Made by a program: the position numbers and the translations under genes
Source of the DNA: an uncultured Pelagibacteraceae bacterium
Lineage (GTDB): Bacteria; Pseudomonadota; Alphaproteobacteria; Pelagibacterales; AG-422-B15
Direction: 5' to 3'
Length of the DNA: 64,000 bases
Assembly: GCA_902544065.1 (NCBI GenBank)
Contig: CACCAS010000002.1
Coordinates: 1,517 to 65,516 of the forward strand
In this document: piece by piece, positions 99 to 57,938 of the stretch
How the letters are laid out: every line of letters begins with the position of its first letter
Position numbering within the stretch: the first letter of the stretch is position 1
Notes under the pieces: model-generated
What the model was told of the DNA's origin: nothing
The model's database searches: none
The model's input: the letters and a program-made list of their open reading frames with translations, nothing else

Positions 99-1115
99 CT
101 AGGGCCGATAGAAAGAAGTCGTCAGAGCAATTTTACCAGTAGCTTTACGTGCAAGAATTGTTTCAAGAGCTTCTTGCCCTCTTTCAAGTGGGAGTACTTC
201 TGTAACTGGTGCTTTCAATTTACCCTCTTCATACCAGCTCGTCAGTTGGTTCATATTATCCAAATGATTTTGTGGCTCTAATGCAGTAAATTGGCCCCAA
301 AAGACGCCTACAGCGGAACATCCTTTGATCAAATAAAGATTCATAGGGATCTTAGGTATATGACCAGCTGCCCAACCGATAACTAAGAAACGTCCATTCC
401 ATGCAATACTTCTTAACGCAGGCTCTGTAAAATCAGCACCAACAGGATCATAAATAACATCTGGTCCTTTGCCACCAGTTGCTTTAGCGATTTCACTTCT
501 AAATTGTTTAACTTGATCACGATCTGTTAAATCATAACCACCATAATTAATGACTTCATCTGCACCATACTGTTTGCATACTTCTAATTTTTCATCAGAT
601 GATGCGGCTGCTACGACCTTAGCACCAAGAGCTTTGCCAATTTCAACAGCTGATATACCAACACCTCCAGCCGCTCCAAGAACCAATAACGTTTCACCTG
701 CTTTGAGTTGGCCACGATTTTTTAATGCGTATTGTGACGTTCCATAAGTTAATGTAAAGCAAGAGGCCGTCGTAAAATCCATACTGCTTGGCTTTTTATA
801 AATTTGAGCAGCACTGACAATCACTTGTTCTCTGAAGCCTCCAAAACCCGTCATGGCAACAACCTCGTCACCAACTTTCCAATCAGTAATGCTTTCACCA
901 ACTGCACTAATGGTTCCTGATATTTCACCACCCGGTGAAAAAGGAAGTGGTGGCTTTACTTGATACTTATCTTGTATAATTAAGGTGTCTGGAAAATTAA
1001 CACCAGCAGCATGCACATCAACCAGTATTTGACTTTTTTTTAATTCAGGAACTTCAACATCCTCATAAACCAATGAACTTGGAGGTCCGAATTCTTTACA
1101 AACAATTGCTTTCAT
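99..1115 (-). CDS. NADPH:quinone oxidoreductase-like medium-chain dehydrogenase/reductase
   Basis: 338-aa ORF; GroES-like N-terminal part (HAAGVNFPD) and Rossmann motif LVLGAAGGVGISAV typical of zeta-crystallin/quinone reductase MDRs. Confidence 0.8.
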   Translation of the reverse strand: MKAIVCKEFGPPSSLVYEDVEVPELKKSQILVDVHAAGVNFPDTLIIQDKYQVKPPLPFSPGGEISGTISAVGESITDWKVGDEVVAMTGFGGFREQVIVSAAQIYKKPSSMDFTTASCFTLTYGTSQYALKNRGQLKAGETLLVLGAAGGVGISAVEIGKALGAKVVAAASSDEKLEVCKQYGADEVINYGGYDLTDRDQVKQFRSEIAKATGGKGPDVIYDPVGADFTEPALRSIAWNGRFLVIGWAAGHIPKIPMNLYLIKGCSAVGVFWGQFTALEPQNHLDNMNQLTSWYEEGKLKAPVTEVLPLERGQEALETILARKATGKIALTTSFYRP

Positions 1116-7838: not shown

Positions 7839-9062
7839 CTATCTAGCGTAACGTCTCAAACCGTCAGGTGTATAGAAACTTGGTGGCTTTTCCGCTCCAT
7901 TGTATGTTGGAATTTCCGGATAAACTGCTTCACCAAAAACGTTATTGCCACTGTATGATCTCGTAGCAAAATCAAAGGTAAATTCGCCATTTGTGAAACA
8001 CTCCGTAGCCGATGAAGCTCCCCATTTTCCCATAACAGCTGTGCCTAGATATGTTCTTAATAGATCACCTGCACCATCATACATATCGTGAAGACCTAAG
8101 TGATAATAATCATCATCAACAAAGTAAAACGTTCTTGAAGCGTATAAATGTCTTTGACCTGGCTTAAGTTGAGCGTGAACAACGTGAACATCTTTCTCTT
8201 CAAAACGAACATAATCAGGATTTAAATGATTTACCGAGTGCGTTAACTCAACAGGGTTATCACTGATTGCATTATTTGACATTGGAACTAGTGCAGTTCT
8301 CTTTCCTTCATAAGTCCAATCATATTTATCTTGTGCACCGTTAAACCCACCATATTGATCAACAGTAATGAGACCACCACCAGCATTCACTACTGTATCA
8401 TAGTTAATATTTGGAGTTCTTCTTACTCTACGTGTAGCAGGGCTATATTGCCAAGCTTTACGAGGTTGCACATAACTATCAACAAAGTCATGGACAAGAG
8501 TAACAACCCCAGCAGCTCTTGGTGGTCCTATATTTTTCTGCATAAACATCGCATGGATATTATTATCAGCATATTGCGACTGTGTGTCAGGATTTTGTGG
8601 GAACACAATATCCGTAATTTGTTGTCCAATTATAATTGATCCATCAGCTGCGACATTGGTAGAAGTTCCTACTCTTTGAGCATTTGAAATATAACTTCCA
8701 GTCATTCTGAAGTTCCAAACAAAATGTTGAGGATGTGTTGGATTTGGGAAAGGTATTTGTCCAACGTTAGGAACCTCGAAGCCTTCGTTATCATTGACCA
8801 TCGTGCCATTTGTTTCTGTCAAGGCAAGTACATCATCCGGCGCAGTACACGCAGGAGAACTTTCGTAAACATCAATCCTAAACGTATCTGGATAAGCACT
8901 AAACATAGCCTTTTGGCCAGGTGTTAGCACGTCATCATATTCAGCAATATTTCCTGCAGTCACTGAGTATTTTAAGTGACCATCAGCCAGAACAGCTGAA
9001 ACAGAAAACACTACTGCAGCAAAAGTTGCTGTTAGTAAGTTTTTTATATTCATTTTATTCAT
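7839..9062 (-). CDS. DUF1329 family protein (LolA-like outer-membrane lipoprotein-sorting fold)
   Basis: 407 aa, signal peptide; WQYSPATRRVRRTP and YDWTYEGKRTALVPMSNN match remembered DUF1329 signatures (RRVRR.P, DWK..GK.E..PYN). Confidence 0.7.
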   Translation of the reverse strand: MNKMNIKNLLTATFAAVVFSVSAVLADGHLKYSVTAGNIAEYDDVLTPGQKAMFSAYPDTFRIDVYESSPACTAPDDVLALTETNGTMVNDNEGFEVPNVGQIPFPNPTHPQHFVWNFRMTGSYISNAQRVGTSTNVAADGSIIIGQQITDIVFPQNPDTQSQYADNNIHAMFMQKNIGPPRAAGVVTLVHDFVDSYVQPRKAWQYSPATRRVRRTPNINYDTVVNAGGGLITVDQYGGFNGAQDKYDWTYEGKRTALVPMSNNAISDNPVELTHSVNHLNPDYVRFEEKDVHVVHAQLKPGQRHLYASRTFYFVDDDYYHLGLHDMYDGAGDLLRTYLGTAVMGKWGASSATECFTNGEFTFDFATRSYSGNNVFGEAVYPEIPTYNGAEKPPSFYTPDGLRRYAR

Positions 9063-9080
9063 CGTATTCCCTTCCCTAAA

Positions 9081-12000
9081 TTAAAATGAGTGAGAAACTG
9101 ACGCTGAAACAAAGTCCATGTCGTTTCTAAGGTTAATATCGTCGTCACCCATATTGTCGATATAGTTAAGATCAACTGAGGTGTCACCATTTACCAAAGA
9201 CACACCAACTCTCATTGACATGCTACCTTCAGTAATTCCAAGTGCCGATGCCGGTCCATAACCGCTAAAGTCGTGAGACCATGCAAAGCTTGGGTTTAAT
9301 GACCATGCTGAATTGAGATAGTTATTATAAGCCGCACCACCAACGATTCTGTAAGTAAATGCTTTATCATCTGCCCCCATTCTGCCTTCACAGTATGATC
9401 CATTACCGAAAACTCCATCTGTAATACTTGATCCAAGAGCCGTATGAGTACCATCAGACATGTTATAGTCAATCTGTGACGCAGTAGTATCAGAAAGTGA
9501 AGTAGTGATCTCATAGGATGCTAGTTTTGCATTAAGAGCTGTAAGTTCATCTGCAGGCAAGTCTTTAAACATACCTAAGCACAAGTACTCACCATTACCC
9601 TCATTAAAACCACTTCGAGCAATATAACCATCTCTCATGTTATCCATGTCTGAAATGAAACCACCAGCAAGCTCTGTTAACAAGAATGCGCTGTCAGCTC
9701 CCAATGTAGTCACAATTGGATCAGAGGCCGTGAATGTAGTTGTCGTACCAATATCAAAAGATAAGATATCCTTTTTGATATAAGGAGTTGTGTAGAAATC
9801 AACGCCTGGAGAACCAGCATTAGCTAGTTGAGGTAGTGAGGATCTTGTGTTGTTCAATATTGCTGTATTGTAAGATCCCGCACCGTAAATTGACTCATAG
9901 GCAGTTTTCATTTGAGCAATTCTGCCTGCTTTTACACCTGATGCGTCAAGTAATGCACCATCGTAACCGGCTAGTGTCAACGCCGTGGTAACGCCTGTAA
10001 CATCCTGAAGTTGAGCTGCTTGTTCACCAAGTGAATAAGCTAGAGGAAAATCAGGTCTGTAGGAAACTTCACCATTTACCATTGTGCCATTAACATTTGT
10101 ACTGAAACTTGCACCATAAATTTCGTTATCCTCAGGATAAACAAATTGATATTTTGCATAGTTCAAAGGTGTAACTGCTGCTGCCAAGGCTGGCGTAAAT
10201 GAAATATATAGTCCAGCGTTCGTAGCAGTATCCCACTGTTTTGTAGGATCGTTATACATCACTCCGTTGCTCATAAGGATACGATTGTTGATATTACTGA
10301 AAATTTCTTTCTCATACTCAGAGCAACCACTTTCAAGTTTTGCATAACCGCCAGAGTAAGTACAGCCGAGAGACTCGGATGCACCTTCACCAACATCCAC
10401 TGAAGCATTTAATAATGCATAAAGCATCATTTGCTGTGCAGAACCAACAGTGTAACCAAGTGATTCTGTGCCAGTTAAAGCTCCAATACCAGTAGCAGCT
10501 CCCATATCAGTACCTCTTGCAGTAGTTAACATTGCACCATTAACTGACGTGGCAGTTGCCGCACCTAATGGGTACATACTAATTGCAACACCTGCGGCTT
10601 GTTGTGCGTCAGCAACATGAGCCGTGTACGCACCTACGATGTCACCAGCAAGCATACCACCTTTACCTACTAATCTTATGTAAGGAACTTTTGAGTGGTA
10701 GTTTGCATAATAGAACTGTGCATCAACGCCAGTACCAATGTCATCAAAATATTTACCAAATTTGATACCGAATTGTCCGTCATCATCTGGCAATACATGT
10801 TTTTCTGAATGCGCTCTGAAATGAACAGTAGCAGCTTGATCAAATTCCCATGCGTCAATGTTAGCGTCAGCCCAAACAGCAGCTGCATCAGCAGCAGTGT
10901 TCAATTTACCAGCTGTTTCCAGTCCGCCTGTGATCACCAGGTTTTGGAATTCATAACCACCAGCTTCCAATGTAGACTGAGCCGCTGAAGCAGCTGCGGC
11001 CTGTGTACCAACCGCTAAGGCTGCAAAATCTGCAGCTGCAGTTTCTGACAATGGATTAATACCTGCATTTGCATACATTGTCCCAACATAAGTTGTTAAA
11101 CCGTTATCACCAGTAGTTGGGTGAATTGGAATACTGTACAAACCAGAACTTGGAGGTGCATTTGTTGCATTTGATGCGCCTGCAATCCACTTATCAATGT
11201 CAGTTGTATCACCCGCAGCATAAGCAGTAGCCGCAGTTGTCCAAGCTGTTCTATTTAAATAACCAAAATCATGAGTATTTGGAGTTGCAAGCGAAGCTGT
11301 TGATTCTCCTGCAGCCCACGTAGTATCATTACACGCTGCACCAACTAAAAGAGTTTCAGAAGTGTTACACTTACCTACAGGGTATTGTGAGTTTAAGTAA
11401 CCACCGCTTGCAAGGATATCATCACCACCTGTAGCAGCAACTTGAGAACCGAAGAAAGTTCCTGATGGATCAATCTTTATCGCATCATGGCCAAACTGAT
11501 AGTAAGCCTCCATTGACCATCCTTCGAGATCCGTTGCGAATGTAATTTGTTCAGTTGGTAAAATTGCTTCACGAATACTTGATCCTGGAGCTCTTAATTT
11601 CGATAAGTCAAATGAGTTAGCCACTAAACCGTTGAAGCCTACAGGAATAAATGTTGCTTCACCCCAGTTTGTTGCTTGTTTTCCAATTGTAATGTCCACA
11701 ATGCTATCACCCACATCAAGAGAGGTTGTTACATAAGCATCAAGTAATTGAAAATCGTTTTCATATTCATTCTCAGCTTCGTTTGTAAGTTGCTTAAAGA
11801 TTGGGGAGCTTATATCTAAAGCAGGGTTTACGTTAGCTGTGAATGATAAATCAAAACGAAGGCCGGCATCTGTTTCGCCATCGATGGCTGTGAAAAGTTT
11901 TTGTGTTGCGTCAATCACATCACCTCGATCGAAGTTTAAGTTTCCAAGATCAGAGTTGACATTTCCATACTCGACTGGTTTCGTTGCTGTGTTGCCATAG

Positions 12001-12353
12001 TCATCAGTTAAATACTGTGAACATGTATCGCTATATAAATAGTTTTTGTTACCACCTGAAAGAACACTGGTTAATTCTGCAGCAGTATCAATTTCCGTAT
12101 CACCCATTAATGCAAGTATCTTAGCATCAGAATCAATTGAAGTACCAAGATCAGAAGATTGTAGGTTGTAAGAATATCCATCCTGGAGCATACAGTTTCT
12201 CTCACTTGCTCTCAGACTGAATCCAGATGTAATTGTAGAATTTATATTACCAGTCATACCTGGTAAGTTTATTTCAGCTGCATAAGACATATGTGTAGAA
12301 GCAAATAGTAATCCTCCTACGAGCCATGCAACTGGTTTATAAAAATTATTCAT
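9081..12353 (-). CDS. large outer-membrane beta-barrel protein, DUF1302-like
   Basis: start moved to ATG at 12353 (AAGGGGAG Shine-Dalgarno 7 nt upstream; signal peptide ...THMSYA/AE); C-terminal ...SHSF terminal Phe; YPEDNEIYGASF...GEVSYRPDFPL resembles the DUF1302 core; Ala/Gly/Thr-rich central region. Confidence 0.6.
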   Translation of the reverse strand: MNNFYKPVAWLVGGLLFASTHMSYAAEINLPGMTGNINSTITSGFSLRASERNCMLQDGYSYNLQSSDLGTSIDSDAKILALMGDTEIDTAAELTSVLSGGNKNYLYSDTCSQYLTDDYGNTATKPVEYGNVNSDLGNLNFDRGDVIDATQKLFTAIDGETDAGLRFDLSFTANVNPALDISSPIFKQLTNEAENEYENDFQLLDAYVTTSLDVGDSIVDITIGKQATNWGEATFIPVGFNGLVANSFDLSKLRAPGSSIREAILPTEQITFATDLEGWSMEAYYQFGHDAIKIDPSGTFFGSQVAATGGDDILASGGYLNSQYPVGKCNTSETLLVGAACNDTTWAAGESTASLATPNTHDFGYLNRTAWTTAATAYAAGDTTDIDKWIAGASNATNAPPSSGLYSIPIHPTTGDNGLTTYVGTMYANAGINPLSETAAADFAALAVGTQAAAASAAQSTLEAGGYEFQNLVITGGLETAGKLNTAADAAAVWADANIDAWEFDQAATVHFRAHSEKHVLPDDDGQFGIKFGKYFDDIGTGVDAQFYYANYHSKVPYIRLVGKGGMLAGDIVGAYTAHVADAQQAAGVAISMYPLGAATATSVNGAMLTTARGTDMGAATGIGALTGTESLGYTVGSAQQMMLYALLNASVDVGEGASESLGCTYSGGYAKLESGCSEYEKEIFSNINNRILMSNGVMYNDPTKQWDTATNAGLYISFTPALAAAVTPLNYAKYQFVYPEDNEIYGASFSTNVNGTMVNGEVSYRPDFPLAYSLGEQAAQLQDVTGVTTALTLAGYDGALLDASGVKAGRIAQMKTAYESIYGAGSYNTAILNNTRSSLPQLANAGSPGVDFYTTPYIKKDILSFDIGTTTTFTASDPIVTTLGADSAFLLTELAGGFISDMDNMRDGYIARSGFNEGNGEYLCLGMFKDLPADELTALNAKLASYEITTSLSDTTASQIDYNMSDGTHTALGSSITDGVFGNGSYCEGRMGADDKAFTYRIVGGAAYNNYLNSAWSLNPSFAWSHDFSGYGPASALGITEGSMSMRVGVSLVNGDTSVDLNYIDNMGDDDINLRNDMDFVSASVSHSF

Positions 12354-12553
12354 GAAATTCTCCCCTTCATTGTAAACTTTAATAAATAAATTTAAGCTGA
12401 TCGAACACAGCATGATCAGAAATTAAATATATTAGGGCTATTCAACAAGAATCTGCCAAATTGTCAATGTCTTAAAAGCCACAATTTTTATATATATTGT
12501 TTTTATGTCACACTCGAATATATGATTGTTAAGTAATTGATAAATAATGATTT

Positions 12554-17395: not shown

Positions 17396-19336
17396 ATGAG
17401 TGATAATGAAAAATTTAACGTCAGTGCCGATTGGTCGGCCAACGCACAAATTAACCAAGATAAATATAATGAGTGGTATGAAACATCCTTCAACAACAAT
17501 GAAGATTTTTGGAACGAGCACGGCAAACGTATAGAATGGATAAAGCCGTATACAAAAGTGAAAGATGTATCATTCAACAAAGATAATTTTTCAATCAAGT
17601 GGTACGAAGATGGTGCTCTTAATGCGTCCGCTAATTGCATCGATCGACATTTAAAAGATAAAGGGGATCAGACAGCCATCATTTGGGAAGGCGATGATCC
17701 AAAAGATTCAAAGCACATTACTTATCATGAACTTCATAAAGAAGTTTCAAAATTATCTAATGGCATGAAATCCCTTGGGGTAAAAAAAGGTGACCGTGTA
17801 ACCATTTATATGCCAATGATTCCTGAAGCAGCATACGCTATGCTTGCGTGCACACGCATTGGCGCTATTCACTCAGTCGTGTTCGGTGGCTTTTCACCTG
17901 ACTCACTTGCAGGACGCATCAGTGATTGTAAATCAGATATTGTGATAACGGCTGATGAAGGGTTAAGAGGCGGCAAACCAATTCCATTAAAAAAGAATAC
18001 TGACGATGCCATCAACATCTCAGGTGGTGTGAGACATTGTATTGTTGTCAAGCGAACAGGTGGGGCAATCGATTGGCATGATGACCGTGATGTTTGGTAT
18101 CATGAATTAATAAGTGATGCATCAGATGACTGTCCGCCAGAAGAAATGAATGCGGAAGATCCATTATTCATTCTCTATACATCAGGATCTACAGGAAAAC
18201 CAAAAGGCGTGATGCATACATCTGGTGGTTATATGGTGTACGCCTCCATGACACATCAATATGTATTTGATTACAAACCAGGTGATGTTTACTGGTGCAC
18301 GGCTGATGTTGGCTGGGTCACGGGACACAGTTACATTGTATATGGACCACTCGCTAATGGTGCAATTACAGTCATGTTTGAAGGGGTGCCTAATTATCCA
18401 AGCGCATCTCGTTTCTGGGAAGTAGTTGATAAACACAAAGTAAATATTTTCTACACAGCGCCGACAGCTATTCGTGCACTCATGCGTGAAGGTGAAGGAC
18501 CAGTAACAAAAACAAGTCGATCCTCTCTAAAATTACTCGGCACTGTGGGCGAGCCAATCAATCCGGAAGCCTGGATGTGGTATTATAATGTCGTCGGTGA
18601 AAAAAAATGTCCCATCGTCGATACATGGTGGCAAACTGAAACGGGGGGCATCTTAATTTCACCTCTTCCTGGAGCTATTGCTCAAAAACCAGGCTCAGCA
18701 ACAAAACCTTTCTTTGGTATCCAACCAGAGATCATGGATGCTGAAGGAAATATATTAGAAGGAGCCTGTGAAGGATCATTGTGTCTTGCAGATTCTTGGC
18801 CAGGACAAATGAGAACCGTATACGGCGATCACAAAAGATTTATTGAAACTTATTTTTCTCAATTTGATGGAAAGTATTTCACCGGTGATGGATGCAAGCG
18901 TGATGAAGATGGTTACTATTGGATCACGGGACGTGTTGATGATGTCATTAATGTTTCTGGTCACCGTATGGGAACCGCCGAAGTTGAATCGGCTTTAGTT
19001 GCACATCCAAAAGTCAGTGAAGCTGCTGTTGTTGGTTATCCTCATGACATTAAAGGTCAGGGAATTTACGCTTACGTAACCTTAAACGCAGGCGAAGCAA
19101 CATCTGACGAATTATATAAAGAGTTGGTTGCTTGGGTTCGAAAAGAGATTGGACCCATTGCATCTCCTGATCTTATTCAATGGGCACCCGGTCTTCCAAA
19201 GACACGGTCTGGTAAAATCATGCGAAGAATTTTAAGAAAGATTGCTGAAAATGAATATAGCAATCTTGGCGATACATCTACTTTGGCCGAACCAGCAGTA
19301 GTCGATGATCTGATCGACAATCGAATGAACAAGTGA
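17396..19336 (+). CDS. acs: acetyl-CoA synthetase
   Basis: 646 aa; AMP-binding [38 protein letters not shown]. Confidence 0.95.
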
Positions 19337-47408: not shown

Positions 47409-47725
47409 TTTTTTATTAATAGATTTTCTACAACTCGATCATTGATCAGATGTTCATTAATAACAAGATCAACATCGCTTTCGGAATTACACGTGTACCA
47501 GATATTATCTGGGTAAATAACCATTGTTGGACCAAACTCACAATGATCAAGGCAGCCCGATGAATTAATTCTAATTTTTTTTTCTGTTACTATTTCTTTT
47601 GTCTTTTTCTTCATGTAGGCCCTGAGTAAGACAGATTTTTTTGAAGCGCAGCAACCTTTTTTGTGACCATCTGGCCTCTGATTGGTGCAGAAAAAAACAT
47701 GTCTTTCAAAAAATTTGTTAGTCAT
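47405..47725 (-). CDS. thioredoxin-like [2Fe-2S] ferredoxin
   Basis: 106 aa; Cys ligand pattern FFCTNQR...GCC...SGCLDHCEFGP; stop overlaps mnmE start by 4 nt. Confidence 0.7.
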   Translation of the reverse strand: MTNKFFERHVFFCTNQRPDGHKKGCCASKKSVLLRAYMKKKTKEIVTEKKIRINSSGCLDHCEFGPTMVIYPDNIWYTCNSESDVDLVINEHLINDRVVENLLIKK

Positions 47726-47756
47726 ATGGAATAAAAATTATAATATTTAAATATAT

Positions 47757-48209
47757 ATGAGTTCTTATGTTTTCAAATCATTGATTGGCAATATAGAGGT
47801 TATCTCAGGTAATAATAAAATTACCGGCGTTAGCCGAACTCGAAAAGCCATTACAAAAACTAAAGATAAACTCTTACTTCGAGCAGCTTTTCAAATTAAC
47901 GCCTATCTAACGCGTAGGCGAAGGTCACTATCTTTTCCAACAAGACAGATGGGAACAAAGTTTCAGAATCGGGTTTGGAACCACTTGAGACAAGTCCCTT
48001 ATGGCCGAACGACAAGCTATGGTCAGATTGCCAAAAAATTAAAGACATCTCCGCGAGCAGTTGGCAGAGCATTGGGAAGAAATAATTTGATGATGACAGT
48101 ACCTTGTCATAGGGTAATTGGCAAAAATGGAGAATTAATTGGATTTACATCAGTTGGTGGCATTAGTACGAAAAAAAGGTTATTGAAACTTGAAAAAAAT
48201 AGTAAGTAA
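47757..48209 (+). CDS. ogt: methylated-DNA--protein-cysteine methyltransferase
   Basis: 150 aa; active site VPCHRVIG, YGQIA helix-turn-helix region. Confidence 0.85.
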   Translation: MSSYVFKSLIGNIEVISGNNKITGVSRTRKAITKTKDKLLLRAAFQINAYLTRRRRSLSFPTRQMGTKFQNRVWNHLRQVPYGRTTSYGQIAKKLKTSPRAVGRALGRNNLMMTVPCHRVIGKNGELIGFTSVGGISTKKRLLKLEKNSK

Positions 48210-48741
48210 AAAAATAAAAAATTCTATAAATACTGTCCCTGACTTTCCTAAAAAAGGAATCATGTTCAGAGATATAACATCCTTAATAAGTAATACGAGA
48301 GTATTTAAGATAGTTATTGACGAGATTATCCAGATAGCTAAAGCAAAGAAAATTAATAAAATTGTAGGCATAGACTCAAGAGGTTTTATTTTTGCTGCTC
48401 CTATTGCCTACAAGATGAACATCCCCCTTATTTTAGTTAGAAAAAAAGGTAAGTTGCCAAGTAGTTCATATAAAGTTAAATACGCTCTTGAGTATGGCTT
48501 CGATATTCTAGAAATTAATAAAGACTCAATAAATAAAACAGATCGAATTATGGTAATAGATGATTTGATTGCAACCGGTGGCACGGCTTTAGCAACTTCG
48601 AAACTTATCTCTAAATCTAGCTCAAAAAAAATTAATTTTGTTTTTGTGATAGAGTTAGAAGACTTACCTGGAGTAGCAAAGATTAAAAAATTAGGACATG
48701 CCGTAAAAACATTATGTAGTTTTAAGGAAGAAGAAAGATGA
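48190..48741 (+). CDS. apt: adenine phosphoribosyltransferase
   Basis: 183 aa; VPDFPKKGIMFRDIT (upstream of the first ATG, so TTG start) and PRPP motif VIDDLIATGGT; overlaps ogt by 20 nt. Confidence 0.9.
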   Translation: MKKIVSKKIKNSINTVPDFPKKGIMFRDITSLISNTRVFKIVIDEIIQIAKAKKINKIVGIDSRGFIFAAPIAYKMNIPLILVRKKGKLPSSSYKVKYALEYGFDILEINKDSINKTDRIMVIDDLIATGGTALATSKLISKSSSKKINFVFVIELEDLPGVAKIKKLGHAVKTLCSFKEEER

Positions 48742-49622
48742 CTGTTAAAATTGGGATCATAGGAGGAAGTGGCTTATATGACTTCGCAGAAATGCAAGAA
48801 AAGAAGTGGCTGCCACGTAATGAAGGGCCATTTGGATTGCCCTCCGATGAGATATTATTTGGAAAAATAAATGAAACTGAAGTGTTTTTCTTACCACGAC
48901 ATGGGAGAAATCATGTTTATTCTCCAACTACAGTCCCCTATAAAGCCAATATTGATGCTCTAAAAAGACTGGGATGCAATGTACTTATTTCAATTTCTGC
49001 AGCGGGATCGCTTCGTGAAGATCTTACTCCAGGAATGTTTGTGATAGTTGATCAATTTATAGATCGTACATTTGCGAGGGAGAAAACTTTTTTTGACAAA
49101 GAAGTAGTAGCTCACGTATCTATGGCTCAGCCTATTTGCACAAGTACTGCAAAAATAGTTATGAAAGCTGCTAAAAGCTTATCAATTAAAACTGTTCTTG
49201 GTGGAACTTACCTCGCGATGGAAGGTCCACAATTTTCTTCCTATGCTGAGTCTCAATTATATCGCAGTTGGGGATGTGATGTTATTGGAATGACAAATAT
49301 GCCTGAAGCAAAATTAGCAAGAGAAGCTGAGATGAGATACACATCTGTTGCTATGGTGACTGATTTTGATTGTTGGCATGAAGCTGAAGGAAATGTAGAG
49401 GTAACAGATATAATTAAAGTATTAAATGAAAACGCATCCAACGCTAAACTTCTCATAAAAGCATTTGTAGAAAATTATAAAAAAGATTACTCACAGGAGA
49501 TTATTGATGGAATTGATAATGTTCTCGACACCGCAATAATAACTCAAAATTTTTCAGAGGAAACTCTTAAAAAATATGGATTAGATGCAATAGCAAGTCG
49601 GATAATTAATGAGGGTAAATAA
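48738..49622 (+). CDS. mtnP: S-methyl-5'-thioadenosine phosphorylase
   Basis: 294 aa; IGIIGGSGLYD, FLPRHGRNH, GMTNMPEAKLAREAE. Confidence 0.85.
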   Translation: MTVKIGIIGGSGLYDFAEMQEKKWLPRNEGPFGLPSDEILFGKINETEVFFLPRHGRNHVYSPTTVPYKANIDALKRLGCNVLISISAAGSLREDLTPGMFVIVDQFIDRTFAREKTFFDKEVVAHVSMAQPICTSTAKIVMKAAKSLSIKTVLGGTYLAMEGPQFSSYAESQLYRSWGCDVIGMTNMPEAKLAREAEMRYTSVAMVTDFDCWHEAEGNVEVTDIIKVLNENASNAKLLIKAFVENYKKDYSQEIIDGIDNVLDTAIITQNFSEETLKKYGLDAIASRIINEGK

Positions 49623-50685
49623 TAAAAGTTATAAATCAATATGGATTGATGATAATGAAAAAATATTCATTATTGATCAAACGTTGCTTCCTTTTGATTT
49701 CAAAATAATAGAATTAAAATCACTTGAAGATGTTATAAATGCTATTGGCAATATGCAAGTTAGAGGGGCGCCTCTTATCGGAGTAACTGCTGCGTTTGGA
49801 ATATATTTAGCCATGCACCAAGGTAATTCTAATATAGATCTAGATAATGCAAAAAAGAAACTGATCGCAACAAGACCTACTGCTATAAACTTAAAATGGG
49901 CCATAAATCAAATTGAAGAAGTTTTATTAAATATTGATCCTAATCACAGGGCAGCAGCTGCATTAAAAATAGCGAAAAAGATGAGTCTTGAGGACGAGAA
50001 AAGTAATGTGAAGATTGGAGAATTTGGATACAAATTAATTGAAAATATTTACAAAAAAAAGAAAGGGACGATCAACATTTTGACTCATTGTAATGCTGGT
50101 TGGCTAGCTACAGTGGACTGGGGAACAGCTACCTCGCCTATATATAAGGCAAGAGACAACAAAATACCCATTCATGTCTGGGTTGATGAAACAAGACCAA
50201 GAAATCAGGGCTCACAATTGACTGCTTGGGAACTTCAGCACGAAGGAATTGATCATACAATAATTCCAGACAATACTGGTGGCCATTTGATGCAAAAGGG
50301 AATGGTTGATATTGTAATTGTTGGGAGCGATAGAACAACTTTTAAAGGAGATGTTTGCAACAAAATCGGTACATATCTTAAAGCATTGGCAGCTAAAGAT
50401 AACAATGTGCCTTTTTATGTTGCTCTTCCATCATCTACTATTGATTGGGAAACTGAAAATAGTGAAAAAATTATTATTGAAGAGAGAAGTGAAGATGAAA
50501 TTCATTATATTCGCGGAAAGGACTTAAATGAAAATATTGTCAATATTCGAATTACCCCTGATAAAAGTAGAGGATCTAACTTTGCATTCGATACTACACC
50601 ATCAAAATATATATCAGGACTAATTACCGAAAATGGAATTTGTTTAGCTACTGAGAATGATATAAGAGATAAGAATGCGAAATAA
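49609..50685 (+). CDS. mtnA: S-methyl-5-thioribose-1-phosphate isomerase
   Basis: 358 aa; MQVRGAPLIGVTAAFG, THCNAG, VGSDRTTFKGDVCNKIGTY (eIF-2B alpha/beta/delta-like family). Confidence 0.85.
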   Translation: MRVNNKSYKSIWIDDNEKIFIIDQTLLPFDFKIIELKSLEDVINAIGNMQVRGAPLIGVTAAFGIYLAMHQGNSNIDLDNAKKKLIATRPTAINLKWAINQIEEVLLNIDPNHRAAAALKIAKKMSLEDEKSNVKIGEFGYKLIENIYKKKKGTINILTHCNAGWLATVDWGTATSPIYKARDNKIPIHVWVDETRPRNQGSQLTAWELQHEGIDHTIIPDNTGGHLMQKGMVDIVIVGSDRTTFKGDVCNKIGTYLKALAAKDNNVPFYVALPSSTIDWETENSEKIIIEERSEDEIHYIRGKDLNENIVNIRITPDKSRGSNFAFDTTPSKYISGLITENGICLATENDIRDKNAK

Positions 50686-52699
50686 TTTTTCAGAAAAGCT
50701 ATTGAACATAACAAAGAAGAAATCAATGAAAACTGGAGCTTCTGAGGATTTAATAGATCGCATATATACGTCAAGGCTGCTAGGACAAAATCCTAATTTG
50801 GTACTTCATGGTGGTGGAAATACATCTGTAAAAAGTAAGAAAAGAGATTTAGATGGAATTTTTCACAACGTTATATTTGTAAAAGGAAGTGGCTCGGACC
50901 TGTCAACCATCCAGGAAAAAGATTTCCCAGCAGTTAAATTGGATCCTTTATATAAAATTATTAGAAGAAAATCTCTATCAGATGAACAAATGGTTAATTA
51001 CTTAAGGAAAAATTTGATTGATGTCACATCACCTAATCCCTCAGTGGAAACTTTAGTGCATGCATCCATCGATAAAAAGTTTGTAGATCATACTCATTCG
51101 AATGCAATTTTAGAAATTACGAATCGAAAAAATGGTTTGTCTTTATGTAAGGAAATTTTTGGAGACGAGATTTCAGTAGTTCCATACGTAATGCCTGGAT
51201 TTATTCTTGCAAAAAAAGTTGACGAAATTTACAAAGAAAATTCAAATGTAAAAGGTCTAATACTTTACAGGCACGGTATTTTTACATTTGGGGATACAGC
51301 CAAAGAATCTTATTCAAGAATGATAAGTTTAGTAACTAAAGCAGAAAAATTCTTAAAAAGCGAAAAGCAAAAAAATTTAAAAAAATTAAGACCCATTAAA
51401 AAACCAATTAAGCCTCATCTTTTATCACCAATAGTTCGTGGCTTGGTTTCAACCGAGACAAGCTACATAGTGAAATTTAGAAGTAATAAAAAAATTCTTG
51501 ATGTTATTAATTCTAAAAACGCAAAGAGTTTTCTTTCAAGGGGAGTGGTAACGCCTGACCACGTTCTGAGGATTAAACCAAAATTTTTGGTCGTTAACAT
51601 TGATGACTGCAAGGATTTATTGTTGATAAAAAAAAGAATTTCTAAAAAAGTTACTGAATTTAAAAATGACTACAAAAAATATTTTAAAAAATATAATAAT
51701 CCGAAACTTAAAAACCAAATGCTAGACCCCGTACCCCAAATCATCGTTGTTCAAAATGTAGGTATATTTTCTATCGGAAAAAGCTCAAAAAATGCATTAA
51801 TAAATGGTGATGTCGCTGAAATGGCAATCAAGACAATCGGCAATTTAGAAAAGAAAACTTCATTCGAAAGTATATCACACAAAGATATTTTTGATGTTGA
51901 ATATTGGAGTCTTGAACAAGCAAAATTAAACAAAACTTCATTACCACTATCAGGCAAAGTATCTTTAATTACGGGAGGAACGGGTACTCTTGGTCTAGCC
52001 ATTGCAGAAAAATTTAGGAATATGGGTTCTGAGGTGATCCTACTTGATGTTAACAAAAAACAACTTGAAGACCAAAATCTTAAGAAAAAGTTTAGCTTGT
52101 ACTTTTGTGATGTTACGAAAAGAGAAAATTTTAAAAAAGTCTTAAATCATGTTTGCTTAGATTATGGTGGACTTGATTTCGTTATCTCTAATGCTGGAAA
52201 CGCTCATCAAAGTGAAATTGCAAAACTAAATGACTCAGCGCTAAAGAAGAGTTTTGAATTAAATTTTTTTGCACACCAAATTGTTGCTTCAGAGAGTGTT
52301 GAACTAATGAGAATGCAAAATATTGGTGGTTGTCTTTTATTCAATATATCGAAGCAAGCAATTAATCCTGGAAAAGATTTTGGCGCATATGGCACATCCA
52401 AGGCAGCCTTGCTAGCCTTGTGCAAACAATATGCCTTAGAGTATGGAGGTATCAATATTCGATCTAACGGGGTAAACGCTGACAGAATAGAAAGTGGGCT
52501 ATTGACAAAAACTATGATTGACAAAAGATCTAAATCAAGAAAAATCACATCGGATGAATATTTACAAAGCAATTTGCTCAAAAAGAAGGTTCTGGCAGAG
52601 GACGTAGCAGAAGCTTTTTACAATTTATCAATTTCAAATAAAACAACTGCCGCTATTTTAACAGTTGATGGTGGCAATATTGAAGCCTCACTGAGATAG
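50675..52699 (+). CDS. bifunctional class II aldolase/adducin-domain protein fused to a short-chain dehydrogenase
   Basis: 674 aa; N-terminal aldolase-II metal motif VDHTHS; C-terminal SDR motifs ITGGTGTLGLAIA, SNAG, YGTSKAAL; overlaps mtnA by 11 nt. Confidence 0.8.
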   Translation: MRNNFSEKLLNITKKKSMKTGASEDLIDRIYTSRLLGQNPNLVLHGGGNTSVKSKKRDLDGIFHNVIFVKGSGSDLSTIQEKDFPAVKLDPLYKIIRRKSLSDEQMVNYLRKNLIDVTSPNPSVETLVHASIDKKFVDHTHSNAILEITNRKNGLSLCKEIFGDEISVVPYVMPGFILAKKVDEIYKENSNVKGLILYRHGIFTFGDTAKESYSRMISLVTKAEKFLKSEKQKNLKKLRPIKKPIKPHLLSPIVRGLVSTETSYIVKFRSNKKILDVINSKNAKSFLSRGVVTPDHVLRIKPKFLVVNIDDCKDLLLIKKRISKKVTEFKNDYKKYFKKYNNPKLKNQMLDPVPQIIVVQNVGIFSIGKSSKNALINGDVAEMAIKTIGNLEKKTSFESISHKDIFDVEYWSLEQAKLNKTSLPLSGKVSLITGGTGTLGLAIAEKFRNMGSEVILLDVNKKQLEDQNLKKKFSLYFCDVTKRENFKKVLNHVCLDYGGLDFVISNAGNAHQSEIAKLNDSALKKSFELNFFAHQIVASESVELMRMQNIGGCLLFNISKQAINPGKDFGAYGTSKAALLALCKQYALEYGGINIRSNGVNADRIESGLLTKTMIDKRSKSRKITSDEYLQSNLLKKKVLAEDVAEAFYNLSISNKTTAAILTVDGGNIEASLR

Positions 52700-52726: not shown

Positions 52727-53866
52727 ATGAGAGGTAATTGGGTAAAATTGAAAAATAAAATTTGGATTCTCTTCCTCACATTGATATTTTTTATGATAAG
52801 CATTAGTTTTCAAGCCGCTGAAGAAGCAACACATGGGACTACGCGTGTTCCAGCCGAATGGGAGCCACAAGAGGCAATATGGATGCAATGGCCTGGTTTT
52901 TGGGAAAAAAGTTATGAACCAACTTTTGCAAAAATGGCTGACATCATTTCACGATACGAAAAATTACATATTCTCTATCATTCAGATCAGATTTATGAGG
53001 AGGCACAAAGATCAATTTTAGATATAGATTCAGACCCACTGCAAAAAAACATTTATTGGCACAAAGTACCCAATGATAATGCTTGGATGAGAGACAATGG
53101 ACCTGTTTATGTTTTTAATGATAATGAACTAAGAATTCAGAATTGGAATTTTGATGCATGGGGTGGTGCTTTTGGTTCAGATGTCTCTTTTAATTTAGAT
53201 AATGAAGTCCCAAATAAGATTGGTGAAATTTTAGATTTGCCTGTTGATCACATAGACATAGTACACGAACGAGGTAACCTGGAATTTAATGGATTAGATA
53301 CTGTTATGTTAAACTGGAGCACCATTGGTGACCCGAGCAGAAACTTGAATTACAGTAAACAGCAGGCAGAAATTGATCTAAAAAAATACTTCGGTGTATC
53401 TAAAGTTATCTTTATTGAGGGTATTCCAATTGGAGATCTTACCAAAGGACACATTGATGGCATTGCACGCTTTATAGAACAAAGAACTGTCGTAGTCGTT
53501 CAATGTACAACGCAGTCATTATGTCAACCAGGTAGTAATGATGCTGAAGTTTATGATGAGGCGGCTAAAGTTATTCAAGAGTCAGGGTTTAATGTAATAA
53601 GAGAACCTATCGAGGGTTTTGTTCAATTCAATGATCAAATGTTTGATACAAATTATATGAACTGGTTAGTAGGAAACGGATTTGTAATCGTACCTAGTTT
53701 TGGAAATCCAGATACAGACATTCCAGCGAAATCTCGTATAGAAAAATATTTCCCAAACCGTGATGTGCATTTAGTAGACATGTTGAGCTCTTGGGCGGCT
53801 GGAGGTGGGATACATTGTCATACAAACGATCAACCAGCTTTTTCAATTTTAAAAGACGAAGGGTAA
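52727..53866 (+). CDS. aguA: agmatine deiminase, possibly exported
   Basis: 379 aa; PAEWEPQEAIWMQWP, NAWMRDNGP, C-terminal catalytic GGGIHCHTNDQP; about 35-aa N-terminal extension looks like a signal peptide (alternative ATG at 52793 would remove it). Confidence 0.8.
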   Translation: MRGNWVKLKNKIWILFLTLIFFMISISFQAAEEATHGTTRVPAEWEPQEAIWMQWPGFWEKSYEPTFAKMADIISRYEKLHILYHSDQIYEEAQRSILDIDSDPLQKNIYWHKVPNDNAWMRDNGPVYVFNDNELRIQNWNFDAWGGAFGSDVSFNLDNEVPNKIGEILDLPVDHIDIVHERGNLEFNGLDTVMLNWSTIGDPSRNLNYSKQQAEIDLKKYFGVSKVIFIEGIPIGDLTKGHIDGIARFIEQRTVVVVQCTTQSLCQPGSNDAEVYDEAAKVIQESGFNVIREPIEGFVQFNDQMFDTNYMNWLVGNGFVIVPSFGNPDTDIPAKSRIEKYFPNRDVHLVDMLSSWAAGGGIHCHTNDQPAFSILKDEG

Positions 53867-57663: not shown

Positions 57664-57731
57664 ATAATATATATATAAGGTAGTATTAGTTTATGTACCT
57701 GTGATGATGTGTATATATAAAAACCTTTTAT

Positions 57732-57740
57732 TTGCCCACA
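57732..57740 (+). promoter_or_regulatory. DnaA-box-like 9-mer TTGCCCACA
   Basis: 7/9 match to TTATCCACA. Confidence 0.35.
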
Positions 57741-57785
57741 AATCAATACACGACTTTAACAAGGATGATCAGAGCATTTGTGATA

Positions 57786-57794
57786 TTACCCACA
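57786..57794 (+). promoter_or_regulatory. DnaA-box-like 9-mer TTACCCACA
   Basis: 8/9 match to TTATCCACA. Confidence 0.4.
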
Positions 57795-57903
57795 TGGTAG
57801 AATTATAGTTTACGCATTATCAACAGGTGAATGAAAAGTAAGAAAAAATAGGATAAAAAGGCCAAAATTTTGTAAATGTTTAAAAACAGTAAACATATAA
57901 TAT

Positions 57904-57912
57904 ATATCCACA
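57904..57912 (+). promoter_or_regulatory. DnaA-box-like 9-mer ATATCCACA
   Basis: 8/9 match to TTATCCACA, embedded in an ATATA-rich tract 27 nt before the maf start. Confidence 0.4.
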
Positions 57913-57938
57913 TTGATTACTCAGGTTGTTAATAGCTT

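What the first reader, a model, noticed from the sequence alone, without database searches (positions are those of the whole stretch)
48190..52699. apt-mtnP-mtnA translationally coupled to a class II aldolase::SDR fusion: candidate single-polypeptide end of a DHAP-shunt-like SAM by-product salvage route
Seen: consecutive plus-strand genes overlap start/stop (ogt/apt 20 nt, apt/mtnP 4 nt, mtnP/mtnA 14 nt, mtnA/fusion 11 nt). The 674-aa product has an N-terminal class II aldolase/adducin domain (metal motif VDHTHS). Its C-terminal half is a short-chain dehydrogenase (ITGGTGTLG, NAG, YGTSKAAL). The window has no mtnB/mtnC/mtnD-type gene and no rhamnose isomerase, kinase or transporter. Known: MtnP yields adenine (recycled by Apt) plus methylthioribose-1-P, and MtnA converts that to methylthioribulose-1-P. 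In the described DHAP shunt a stand-alone class II aldolase cleaves that ketose-1-P (or 5-deoxyribulose-1-P) into DHAP plus an aldehyde, which a separate dehydrogenase handles. Aldolase::SDR fusions of this architecture are characterised as rhamnulose-1-P aldolase/lactaldehyde dehydrogenase (RhaEW). Inference: here the fusion has been recruited to MTA/5'-deoxyadenosine salvage. It would cleave the MtnA product and oxidise or reduce (methylthio)acetaldehyde on the same polypeptide, replacing the canonical methionine salvage steps. In a streamlined marine lineage the fate of that sulfur (methylthioethanol or methylthioacetate versus methionine) would be physiologically relevant.
Basis: partly seen in the sequence, partly recalled or inferred. 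Interest (0 to 1): 0.7.

Follow-up and report, generated by a model that had tools for sequence, protein, structure and literature searches.

The report
Fused aldolase-dehydrogenase for SAM by-product salvage
A SAR11-type marine bacterium places a fused aldolase-dehydrogenase gene directly after the genes that break down methylthioadenosine, and the same pairing in four other bacterial groups suggests this one protein finishes a known salvage route using an enzyme type not previously linked to it.

Summary
Five plus-strand ORFs (ogt, apt, mtnP, mtnA and a 674-aa class II aldolase::SDR fusion) overlap by 20, 4, 14 and 11 nt, and every quoted motif is present. The overlaps are not special, because 21 of 45 same-strand gene pairs in the window overlap.

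- The fusion passes NCBIfam NF006192 (generic "bifunctional aldolase/SDR") and fails the RhaEW model TIGR02632. A true RhaEW from a rha locus does the reverse.
- It is 31% identical to that RhaEW. It has only trace similarity to MtnB (24 bits) and to E. coli Ald2 (hhalign probability 1%).
- NF006192 members lie next to mtnA in 69 of 80 Pelagibacteraceae species loci, in gammaproteobacterial MAGs and in Ruegeria. They lie next to mtnK-mtnA in Brucella, Ensifer, Mariluticola and Gemmatirosa (a different phylum).
- No rhamnose genes occur in the window or in any SAR11-type locus.

Most likely it cleaves 5-methylthio- or 5-deoxy-ribulose-1-P to DHAP. It then probably oxidises the aldehyde with NAD+.

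Enzyme activity and genome-wide absence of MtnB/C/D are untested. I found no publication making this link. I rate it a new variant of the DHAP shunt.

The parts
47715..47744 (+). Promoter-like site (TTGTTA-18-TATAAT) in the 31-nt divergent spacer upstream of ogt. It is a possible start of a six-gene transcription unit.
   Evidence: This is weak evidence: the region holds 22 such sites against 28.5 expected by chance. No + strand terminator-like site lies between 47757 and 53866.
47757..48209 (+). ogt, methylated-DNA-protein-cysteine methyltransferase. It is the first gene of the run and has no functional relation to the salvage route.
   Evidence: PF01035 104.5 bits; TIGR00589 95.2 bits against cutoff 46.4.
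48190..48741 (+). apt, adenine phosphoribosyltransferase. It recycles the adenine released by MtnP.
   Evidence: TIGR01090 204.5 bits against cutoff 185.85. It is linked to mtnP in the related loci.
48738..49622 (+). mtnP, 5'-methylthioadenosine phosphorylase.
   Evidence: TIGR01694 286.5 bits against cutoff 274.85; PF01048 147 bits.
49609..50685 (+). mtnA, 5-methylthioribose-1-phosphate isomerase. It produces the ketose-1-phosphate.
   Evidence: TIGR00512 403.8 bits against cutoff 279; NF004326 441.7 bits.
50675..52699 (+). Bifunctional class II aldolase::SDR protein, 674 aa, NCBIfam NF006192. It is the proposed 5-methylthio-/5-deoxy-ribulose-1-P aldolase plus aldehyde dehydrogenase.
   Evidence: NF006192 796 bits against cutoff 639; TIGR02632 458 bits, below its cutoff of 567.75. 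Synteny. AlphaFold model with pLDDT 80.9.
50765..51346 (+). Class II aldolase domain (aa 31-224). The putative acid/base and metal ligands are E125, H139, H141 and H200. The HGGGNTS loop lies at aa 45-51.
   Evidence: PF00596 83.7 bits. (PDB 3m4r, E = 1e-65). (3m4r, TM 0.88 over the target). The residues are invariant in alignment A1, and H139, H141 and H200 are invariant across the whole family.
51371..51934 (+). Middle region (aa 233-420). It is shared by the whole bifunctional family and by the SDR-less 413-aa homologue of Alloyangia. Its role is unknown.
   Evidence: the family models align through aa 420; weak similarity of aa 333-386 to the C-terminal part of ribulose-5-P 4-epimerase models..
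51935..52699 (+). Classical SDR domain (aa 421-674). It has TGGTGTLG at 433-440, D458 at the end of beta-2 (indicating NAD preference), NAG at 506-508, and S559, Y572 and K576.
   Evidence: PF00106 104.6 bits. (residues invariant in A1). (S559, Y572, K576 and D458 invariant in all family members compared). (folds like NAD-dependent SDRs).
52727..53866 (+). PAD_porph (agmatine-deiminase-like) gene with a signal-peptide-like N-terminus, 27 nt downstream of the fusion. It may be the last gene of the unit and may link to polyamine metabolism.
   Evidence: PF04371 235 bits; AguA models 164 and 162 bits, below their cutoffs. It is conserved only in the 96%-identical MAG and not in the other loci.

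Best explanation

Proposed steps:
1. MtnP phosphorolyses the nucleoside, and Apt recaptures the adenine.
2. MtnA isomerises the 5-substituted ribose-1-P to the ribulose-1-P.
3. The N-terminal metal-dependent class II aldolase domain of the fusion cleaves C3-C4. This gives dihydroxyacetone phosphate plus 2-(methylthio)acetaldehyde or acetaldehyde.
4. The C-terminal NAD-type SDR domain converts the aldehyde on the same polypeptide. By analogy with the characterised homologue RhaEW, the conversion is most likely oxidation to 2-(methylthio)acetate or acetate, with NADH formed.

Status of each claim:
- Shown here: gene identities, domain architecture, intact catalytic motifs, subfamily membership, and genomic linkage to mtnA in five lineages.
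- Inferred: the substrate, the aldol cleavage and the redox direction.

The aldolase half is only remotely related to the known shunt aldolase Ald2/DrdA. This would therefore be a replacement of Ald2 by a distant homologue, and it would add a dedicated aldehyde-handling step.
For: 1. Subfamily identity. The window protein passes NF006192 (796 bits against cutoff 639) and fails the RhaEW equivalog TIGR02632 (458 bits against 567.75). As a control, RhaEW of Rhizobium johnstonii, which sits in a rhaI/rhaS/rhaM/kinase locus, scores 1195 on TIGR02632 and fails NF006192 at 435.

2. Synteny with mtnA in independent arrangements.
- apt-mtnP-mtnA-fusion at 60% identity.
- Fusion convergent with mtnA-mtnP in 69 of 80 GTDB species loci of Pelagibacteraceae and in MAGs labelled Gammaproteobacteria. 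The median spacer is 41 nt.
- mtnA-fusion on the same strand in Ruegeria.
- mtnK-mtnA-fusion in Gemmatirosa, phylum Gemmatimonadota.
- A SorC regulator, the fusion, a ribose-type ABC transporter and mtnK-mtnA in Brucella anthropi, Ensifer and Mariluticola.
- All of these fusions pass NF006192.
- This layout mirrors the E. coli shunt cluster mtnK-mtnA-ald2 with its SorC-type regulator.

3. Sugar specificity. The characterised kinase DrdK, a relative of MtnK, acts on 5-deoxyribose and 5-methylthioribose but not on ribose (PMC6079011). This points to 5-substituted sugars.

4. Homology to a validated enzyme. The fusion is 31% identical end to end to RhaEW. RhaEW cleaves a deoxy-ketose-1-P to DHAP and oxidises the aldehyde with NAD+, and it showed no activity when NADH was supplied in place of NAD+ (PMC3870299).

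5. Catalytic residues. E125, H139, H141 and H200 are conserved in the aldolase half. The SDR motifs are conserved too, including D458, which indicates NAD preference.

6. Fold. The model matches a class II aldolase (3m4r, TM 0.88) joined to an NAD-type SDR.

7. A gap in the known pathway. The enzyme that handles 2-methylthioacetaldehyde in the DHAP shunt is stated to be unknown (PMC13474568).
Against: - No biochemical data exist for any NF006192 member.
- Stereochemistry, from my own knowledge of DHAP aldolases: L-rhamnulose-1-P is 3R,4S, whereas D-ribulose-1-P derivatives are 3R,4R, the FucA/Ald2 type. The homology to the RhaE domain of RhaEW therefore does not predict this substrate directly.
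- A paralogous group in R. leguminosarum and S. meliloti also passes NF006192. It shares 41 of the 44 positions that separate the mtnA-linked group from RhaEW. Yet it lies in a glycerol-phosphate/sugar-transporter context with no mtnA. Subfamily membership alone therefore does not fix the substrate.
- Seven Pelagibacteraceae loci with full 8-kb flanks have no mtnA nearby.
- The Rhizobiales loci also carry a RuBisCO-like protein and a split transketolase. These could take the MtnA product down another route.
- A 2026 preprint scores a KEGG "methionine salvage" module as at least 98% complete in Pelagibacter but gives no gene list.
- The complete genome could not be examined.
Confidence: 0.68

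Rival explanations
1. The N-terminal domain performs other chemistry on the MtnA product. It could be an MtnB-like dehydration or a 4-epimerisation, both of which occur in the class II aldolase fold. The SDR would then reduce or oxidise that product, giving a new methionine-salvage or deoxy-sugar route with no aldol cleavage.
For: The link to mtnA says only that the MtnA product is the likely substrate and says nothing about the reaction. MtnB, AraD and the aldolases share the same metal ligands. The best stand-alone matches of the N-domain are a ribulose-5-P 4-epimerase model and an archaeal FucA model, at about 35 bits each. The Rhizobiales loci carry a RuBisCO-like protein, and members of that family act as the DK-MTP-1-P enolase in Bacillus (PMC5893883).
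Against: The MtnB model scores only 24 bits against a cutoff of 137. The closest characterised relative, at 31% identity over the full length, is an aldolase whose products DHAP and lactate were detected. No mtnC, mtnD, mtnW or mtnX lies in the window or in the SAR11-type loci.
Confidence: 0.12
2. The operon degrades ordinary purine nucleosides. MtnP would take adenosine or inosine, and MtnA would isomerise ribose-1-P to ribulose-1-P. The fusion would then give DHAP plus glycolaldehyde and oxidise the latter to glycolate. SAM by-products would be at most side substrates.
For: apt is linked to mtnP in nearly all loci. MTAP-family enzymes with broad nucleoside range are cited in a marine context (bioRxiv 10.1101/2024.02.09.579562). 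A ribulose-1-phosphate aldolase family exists within the class II aldolases (NF053831, seen).
Against: MtnP and MtnA both pass the equivalog cutoffs for the methylthio enzymes. In four lineages the partner is MtnK (TIGR01767, 491 bits), and the characterised relative DrdK rejects ribose. No ribose-1,5-bisphosphate enzymes are nearby.
Confidence: 0.1
3. It is an ordinary RhaEW, the rhamnulose-1-P aldolase/lactaldehyde dehydrogenase of rhamnose catabolism, as some automatic annotations of close homologues state.
For: JGI names two homologues "rhamnose utilization protein RhaD". The architecture is the same, and identity to RhaEW is 31%. Rhamnose ABC transporters are reported in the related AEGEAN-169 clade (PMC10308909).
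Against: It scores below the TIGR02632 and NF006189 cutoffs, while a true RhaEW passes them. Rhamnose isomerase, kinase, mutarotase and binding-protein queries hit nothing in the window or in 85 related loci. RhaEW forms the outgroup in the neighbour-joining tree. Forty-four positions, including E125 (Asp in RhaEW), separate the two groups.
Confidence: 0.03

Closest known systems
DHAP shunt for MTA and 5'-deoxyadenosine: MtnP (or MtnN plus MtnK), MtnA and Ald2/DrdA (EC 4.1.2.62). It is described in Rhodospirillum rubrum, Rhodopseudomonas palustris, Bacillus thuringiensis and ExPEC E. coli.
   Same: The first steps are the same and are encoded in one cluster: mtnP-mtnA here and mtnK-mtnA in relatives. 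A class II aldolase-fold enzyme is encoded next to mtnA. A SorC-type regulator accompanies both the Rhizobiales loci and the E. coli locus.
   Different: The aldolase half is not an Ald2/FucA-type protein (hhalign probability 1%). E. coli Ald2 classifies in the FucA subfamily NF005984. Here the aldolase is fused to an SDR, whereas the aldehyde-handling enzyme of the described shunt is separate and unidentified.
RhaEW (YuxG; TIGR02632), the bifunctional L-rhamnulose-1-P aldolase/L-lactaldehyde dehydrogenase of Chloroflexus, Bacillus and alphaproteobacteria.
   Same: The three-part architecture over about 680-700 aa is the same, with 31% identity end to end. The metal-binding histidines, the SDR Ser-Tyr-Lys residues and the Asp indicating NAD preference are conserved. 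The logic is also the same: cleave a terminal-deoxy ketose-1-P, then process the aldehyde on the same polypeptide.
   Different: It falls below the family cutoff and is never found in rha loci. It differs at 44 clade-specific positions, including the putative catalytic Glu125 (Asp in RhaEW) and the SDR substrate loop at aa 557-573. The predicted substrate has the opposite C4 configuration.
NCBIfam NF006192 (PRK08324.1-6), "bifunctional aldolase/short-chain dehydrogenase".
   Same: The window protein is a member at 796 bits against a cutoff of 639. So are the Pelagibacter, Ruegeria, Gemmatirosa, Ensifer and Brucella proteins.
   Different: The model carries only a generic name and no assigned substrate. 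It also captures the paralogues in the glycerol-1-phosphate dehydrogenase (G1PDH) context, which additionally pass NF006195.
MtnB, the methylthioribulose-1-P dehydratase of canonical methionine salvage.
   Same: It has a class II aldolase fold, and its substrate is also the MtnA product.
   Different: The TIGR03328 score is 24 bits against a cutoff of 137. No MtnC, MtnD, MtnW or MtnX partner lies nearby.

Membership tests
RhaEW (TIGR02632 / NF006189) | Score at or above the curated equivalog cutoff | tested here: not met
   The window protein scores 458 bits against 567.75 and 436.5 against 634. The positive control, R. johnstonii RhaEW, scores 1195 and 1291.
RhaEW (TIGR02632 / NF006189) | [quoted passage not shown] | tested here: not met
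   tblastn with RhaI, RhaK, RhaM and RhaS gave no hit in the window or in 85 SAR11-type loci. The Pfam survey of the window found none.
RhaEW (TIGR02632 / NF006189) | Architecture of class II aldolase, middle region and SDR on one chain | tested here: met
RhaEW (TIGR02632 / NF006189) | Rhamnulose-1-P aldolase and NAD+-dependent lactaldehyde dehydrogenase activities | not testable with these tools
   This needs an enzyme assay.
NCBIfam NF006192 bifunctional aldolase/SDR | Score at or above the curated cutoff of 639 bits | tested here: met
   796.2 bits over the full length, aa 6-674.
Ald2/DrdA 5-(methylthio)- and 5-deoxy-ribulose-1-P aldolase (EC 4.1.2.62) | Sequence membership in the FucA-like stand-alone class II aldolase group | tested here: not met
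   hhalign of A1 against E. coli Ald2 gave probability 1.1% and E = 0.049. The N-domain scores at most 35 bits on FucA, aldolase or epimerase models. Ald2 itself passes NF005984.
Ald2/DrdA 5-(methylthio)- and 5-deoxy-ribulose-1-P aldolase (EC 4.1.2.62) | Gene clustered with mtnA plus mtnP or mtnK | tested here: met
Ald2/DrdA 5-(methylthio)- and 5-deoxy-ribulose-1-P aldolase (EC 4.1.2.62) | Class II aldolase metal ligands (three His) and acid/base carboxylate | tested here: met
   H139, H141 and H200 are invariant in the family. E125 is invariant in the mtnA-linked clade. The assignment rests on motif position and not on a structure with bound metal.
Ald2/DrdA 5-(methylthio)- and 5-deoxy-ribulose-1-P aldolase (EC 4.1.2.62) | DHAP release from 5-methylthioribulose-1-P or 5-deoxyribulose-1-P | not testable with these tools
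   This needs an enzyme assay.
MtnB dehydratase (TIGR03328) | Score at or above the cutoff of 137 bits | tested here: not met
   24 bits, over a 37-residue stretch only.
Classical NAD(P) short-chain dehydrogenase | TGxxxGxG, NAG and Ser-Tyr-Lys motifs with a Rossmann fold | tested here: met
   T433-G440, N506-G508, S559, Y572 and K576 are present, and D458 indicates NAD preference. Foldseek matches NAD-type SDRs with TM 0.75-0.84 over the target.
DHAP shunt (pathway) | MtnP (or MtnN plus MtnK) and MtnA present and passing equivalog cutoffs | tested here: met
DHAP shunt (pathway) | Absence of, or independence from, MtnB-C-D in the same genome | not testable with these tools

The most novel reading that the evidence does not exclude
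SAR11 and its relatives are the most abundant heterotrophs in the ocean. They, and scattered soil and marine bacteria from at least two phyla, would run an unrecognised form of the DHAP shunt. In it, one polypeptide unrelated to Ald2 both cleaves the MtnA product and oxidises the aldehyde. MTA would then be turned into AMP, DHAP, NADH and 2-(methylthio)acetate and would not be recycled to methionine. This would name the first dedicated aldehyde-handling enzyme of the shunt. It would predict a new dissolved organosulfur product. It would also allow SAR11 to use MTA and 5'-deoxyadenosine released by phytoplankton as a source of carbon, energy and purine.
Probability: 0.4. Interest if true: 0.75.

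Novelty: new variant of a known kind. Interest (0 to 1): 0.62.

Why it matters
- The DHAP shunt is the main known alternative to canonical methionine salvage. Its aldolase has been recognised only as the FucA-like Ald2/DrdA, and its aldehyde-processing enzyme is still described as unknown in a 2026 review.
- If the NF006192 fusions do this job, surveys based on Ald2 homology have missed the pathway in Pelagibacterales, in some roseobacters, in Rhizobiales and in Gemmatimonadota.
- SAR11 cannot reduce sulfate and depends on reduced organic sulfur. Whether MTA sulfur is kept or leaves the cell as methylthioacetate or methylthioethanol therefore bears on its sulfur budget and on marine dissolved organosulfur.
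- MTA is released by Prochlorococcus cultures, so a catabolic role in cross-feeding is possible.
- The prediction can be tested directly with one recombinant protein and the established coupled assays.

Tried and rejected
- Literature. Ten full-text searches found no paper that links this fusion family to mtnA or reports a DHAP shunt in SAR11. They combined terms such as DHAP shunt, SAR11, Pelagibacter, "bifunctional aldolase", mtnA, Ald2, methylthioribulose, RuBisCO-like protein, transketolase and mtnK. The survey paper by North et al. 2020 is not held, so prior mention there cannot be excluded. The SAR11 Genome Atlas preprint has no relevant text.
- Whole-genome check for mtnB/C/D/K/N. This was not possible. 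The one genome-contig scan went to the synteny survey, and no tool gives whole genomes.
- Riboswitch or other RNA control. Rfam found only one tRNA in the window.
- Promoter and terminator scan. Counts were at or below chance, so the scan serves only as a weak hint of operon extent.
- Radical SAM/SPASM gene. One sits upstream of the fusion in one metagenomic lineage and looked like a thematic link to 5'-deoxyadenosine. It is present in only 3 of 80 loci, so I dropped it.
- Translational coupling as evidence. I rejected it because overlaps are the norm in this window.
- Specificity-determining residues. The 44 positions separate RhaEW from the whole sister clade. They do not separate the mtnA-linked proteins from the paralogues in the glycerol-1-phosphate dehydrogenase (G1PDH) context, so they cannot pin down the substrate.
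- The neighbour-joining tree has no bootstrap support and few RhaEW sequences. I use it only to show that RhaEW falls outside the clade.

Full report
**Observation.** They overlap by 20, 4, 14 and 11 nt.
- Apt, MtnP and MtnA each pass a curated NCBIfam equivalog cutoff.
- The long ORF has Pfam Aldolase_II at aa 31-224 and adh_short at aa 428-611. It contains all the quoted motifs.
- A sixth gene follows 27 nt later on the same strand: a PAD_porph/agmatine-deiminase-like protein with a signal-peptide-like N-terminus (52727-53866). No terminator-like site lies in between.
- A Pfam survey of 64 window ORFs found no second class II aldolase, no ARD, no enolase-phosphatase, no MtnK or MtnN, and no rhamnose gene.
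- The window is 96% coding, and 21 of 45 same-strand neighbouring ORF pairs overlap. The overlaps are real but say little on their own.

**Source organism.** The closest protein (96% identity) comes from a MAG named Candidatus Pelagibacterales bacterium, GCA_045567295.1, with the same gene order. The window has the typical alphaproteobacterial origin-region layout: parB-parA-rsmG-mnmG-mnmE, then rho-hemH-hemE facing maf-aroE-coaE.

**What the fusion is.**
- Among the eleven NCBIfam models of the bifunctional aldolase/SDR family, the protein passes only NF006192, which has a generic name (796 bits against cutoff 639). It fails both rhamnulose-1-P models (458 against 567.75; 436 against 634).
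- The test discriminates. RhaEW of Rhizobium johnstonii 3841 sits between a rhamnose ABC transporter/mutarotase/kinase operon and rhaI. It scores 1195 and 1291 on the rhamnulose models and fails NF006192.
- The two proteins are 31% identical from end to end, so they are homologues with the same architecture but different subfamilies.
- The N-terminal 420 residues alone score 456 bits on NF006192 and 300 on TIGR02632. They score only 24 on MtnB, 35 on an archaeal FucA model and 23 on RhaD.
- A profile of 13 homologues aligns to E. coli Ald2 with hhalign probability 1%. That Ald2 comes from an mtnK-mtnA-ald2 cluster and itself classifies in a FucA subfamily.
- The aldolase half is therefore neither MtnB nor Ald2-type. 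It belongs to the RhaE-type lineage, named after the aldolase domain of RhaEW.
- The only solved relative of that lineage is the uncharacterised Thermoplasma domain 3m4r.
- The AlphaFold model (pLDDT 80.9) shows a class II aldolase domain, a middle region and a classical SDR.
- The putative metal and acid/base residues E125, H139, H141 and H200 are conserved. So are the SDR residues S559, Y572 and K576, the glycine motif and D458, which indicates NAD preference.

**Gene neighbourhoods.** This is the core evidence.
- A 60%-identical metagenomic homologue has the same apt-mtnP-mtnA-fusion order.
- A scan of one genome per GTDB species returned 80 loci, almost all Pelagibacteraceae at about 50% identity. 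In 69 of them mtnA lies just downstream of the fusion on the opposite strand. It is followed by mtnP, with apt divergent from mtnP. The median spacer is 41 nt (range 14 nt to 5.3 kb). Four of the remaining loci are truncated, and seven have no mtnA within 8 kb.
- MAGs labelled Gammaproteobacteria show the same arrangement.
- Outside this group, tblastn against plasmids and chromids found NF006192 members at 41-45% identity.
- In Ruegeria sp. AD91A, mtnA is immediately upstream on the same strand.
- In Gemmatirosa kalamazoonensis (Gemmatimonadota) the order is mtnK-mtnA-fusion.
- In Brucella anthropi, Ensifer adhaerens and Mariluticola halotolerans the fusion sits beside a SorC-type regulator and a ribose-type ABC transporter. 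Next come mtnK, mtnA, a split transketolase-like pair and a RuBisCO-like protein.
- These layouts parallel the E. coli cluster mtnK-mtnA-ald2 with its SorC-type regulator.
- Rhamnose gene queries hit only the two true rha loci.
- One paralogous group, in R. leguminosarum and S. meliloti, lies among glycerol-phosphate dehydrogenases and a sugar transporter with no mtnA. I refer to this as the glycerol-1-phosphate dehydrogenase (G1PDH) context. The group passes both NF006192 and NF006195.
- In a neighbour-joining tree RhaEW is the outgroup to all of these proteins.

**Mechanism.**
- The simplest reading is that the fusion takes the MtnA product.
- By homology with RhaEW, the aldolase half would split it into DHAP plus an aldehyde. 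RhaEW converts L-rhamnulose-1-P to DHAP and lactate with NAD+ and showed no activity when NADH was supplied instead of NAD+ (PMC3870299).
- The aldehyde would be 2-(methylthio)acetaldehyde from MTA or acetaldehyde from 5'-deoxyadenosine. The NAD-type SDR half would then oxidise it to the acid.
- The partner kinase in four lineages is an MtnK equivalog. The characterised relative DrdK accepts 5-deoxyribose and 5-methylthioribose but not ribose (PMC6079011). This favours 5-substituted sugars over ribose.
- Steps shown here: gene identities, subfamily, motifs and synteny. Steps inferred: substrate, bond cleaved and redox direction.
- One point against easy transfer from RhaEW rests on established stereochemistry of DHAP aldolases and not on a tool result. 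Rhamnulose-1-P is 3R,4S, and ribulose-1-P derivatives are 3R,4R.
- Forty-four positions are fixed in the mtnA-linked group and differ in RhaEW. They include E125 (Asp in RhaEW), H45, Y171 and much of the SDR loop at aa 557-573. The G1PDH-context paralogues share 41 of the 44, so these positions mark the clade and not the substrate.

**Comparison with the literature.**
- The DHAP shunt is described with a stand-alone Ald2/DrdA aldolase. A separate, still unidentified alcohol dehydrogenase is presumed for the aldehyde (PMC5893883; PMC13474568).
- Ten full-text searches found nothing that connects the bifunctional family with mtnA or that describes the shunt in SAR11. The main survey paper (North et al. 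2020) is not in the library.
- A 2026 preprint reports a "methionine salvage" module as nearly complete in all Pelagibacter genomes but gives no gene list. This is the main unresolved caveat to the idea that the fusion replaces canonical salvage.

**Verdict.**
- I file the protein as a member of NF006192. It is not RhaEW, Ald2 or MtnB.
- The system is a new variant of the DHAP shunt: the aldolase is replaced by a distant homologue that is fused to the enzyme for the next step.
- Confidence is about 0.68 that it is an aldolase/aldehyde dehydrogenase acting on MtnA products. It is higher, about 0.85, for the weaker claim that its substrate derives from MtnA. It is only slightly better than even for oxidation over reduction.

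Noticed in passing
window 52727-53866 (+): A PAD_porph/agmatine-deiminase-like gene lies 27 nt after the fusion and is probably in the same transcript. It scores below the AguA cutoffs and has a signal-peptide-like N-terminus. It is kept in the 96%-identical MAG but absent from other related loci. It may link to polyamine metabolism, which is the source of MTA.
   Followed up: partly
window 57664-57938 (hemE|maf intergenic): Three one-mismatch DnaA-box-like 9-mers lie at 57786, 57817 and 57904 on one strand, in an AT-rich 275-nt spacer. The flanking gene order is the classic alphaproteobacterial origin layout. This is the probable oriC.
   Followed up: partly
L089 1707-13799; L086 7714-20040; L094 5749-18121: Plasmid or chromid loci of Brucella anthropi, Ensifer adhaerens and Mariluticola share one gene set. 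It comprises a SorC regulator, the aldolase::SDR fusion, a ribose-type ABC transporter, mtnK, mtnA, a split transketolase/DXS-like pair and a RuBisCO-like protein. This is an apparently uncharacterised locus for 5-deoxy- or 5-methylthio-ribose use, with two possible fates for the MtnA product.
   Followed up: partly
L087 8001-9242 (Alloyangia pacifica plasmid): A 413-aa homologue with the aldolase and middle regions but no SDR is the gene after lsrACDB, next to lsrK and the regulator. It may be a phospho-AI-2-processing enzyme of this family.
   Followed up: no
L091 and L092, fusion at about 9000-11050: A paralogous aldolase::SDR group in R. leguminosarum and S. meliloti passes both NF006192 and NF006195. 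It sits with an sn-glycerol-1-P dehydrogenase, a HAD hydrolase, glpD, a sugar ABC transporter and another SDR. Its substrate is unknown.
   Followed up: no
L006-L085, between the fusion stop and the convergent mtnA stop: The spacer varies from 14 nt to 5.3 kb among Pelagibacteraceae species, and seven loci have no mtnA within 8 kb. This suggests an insertion hot spot between the two convergent genes.
   Followed up: partly
window 7839-12413 (-): A DUF1329 gene and an unusually long (1110 aa) DUF1302 gene lie in a stretch of 40-42% GC. The rest of the window is 30-35% GC.
   Followed up: no
window 17396-19336 (+) and 99-1115 (-): An acetyl-CoA synthetase-type ligase and a zinc alcohol dehydrogenase are encoded in the same window. 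They could handle acetate or acetaldehyde-type products, but nothing links them to the operon.
   Followed up: no
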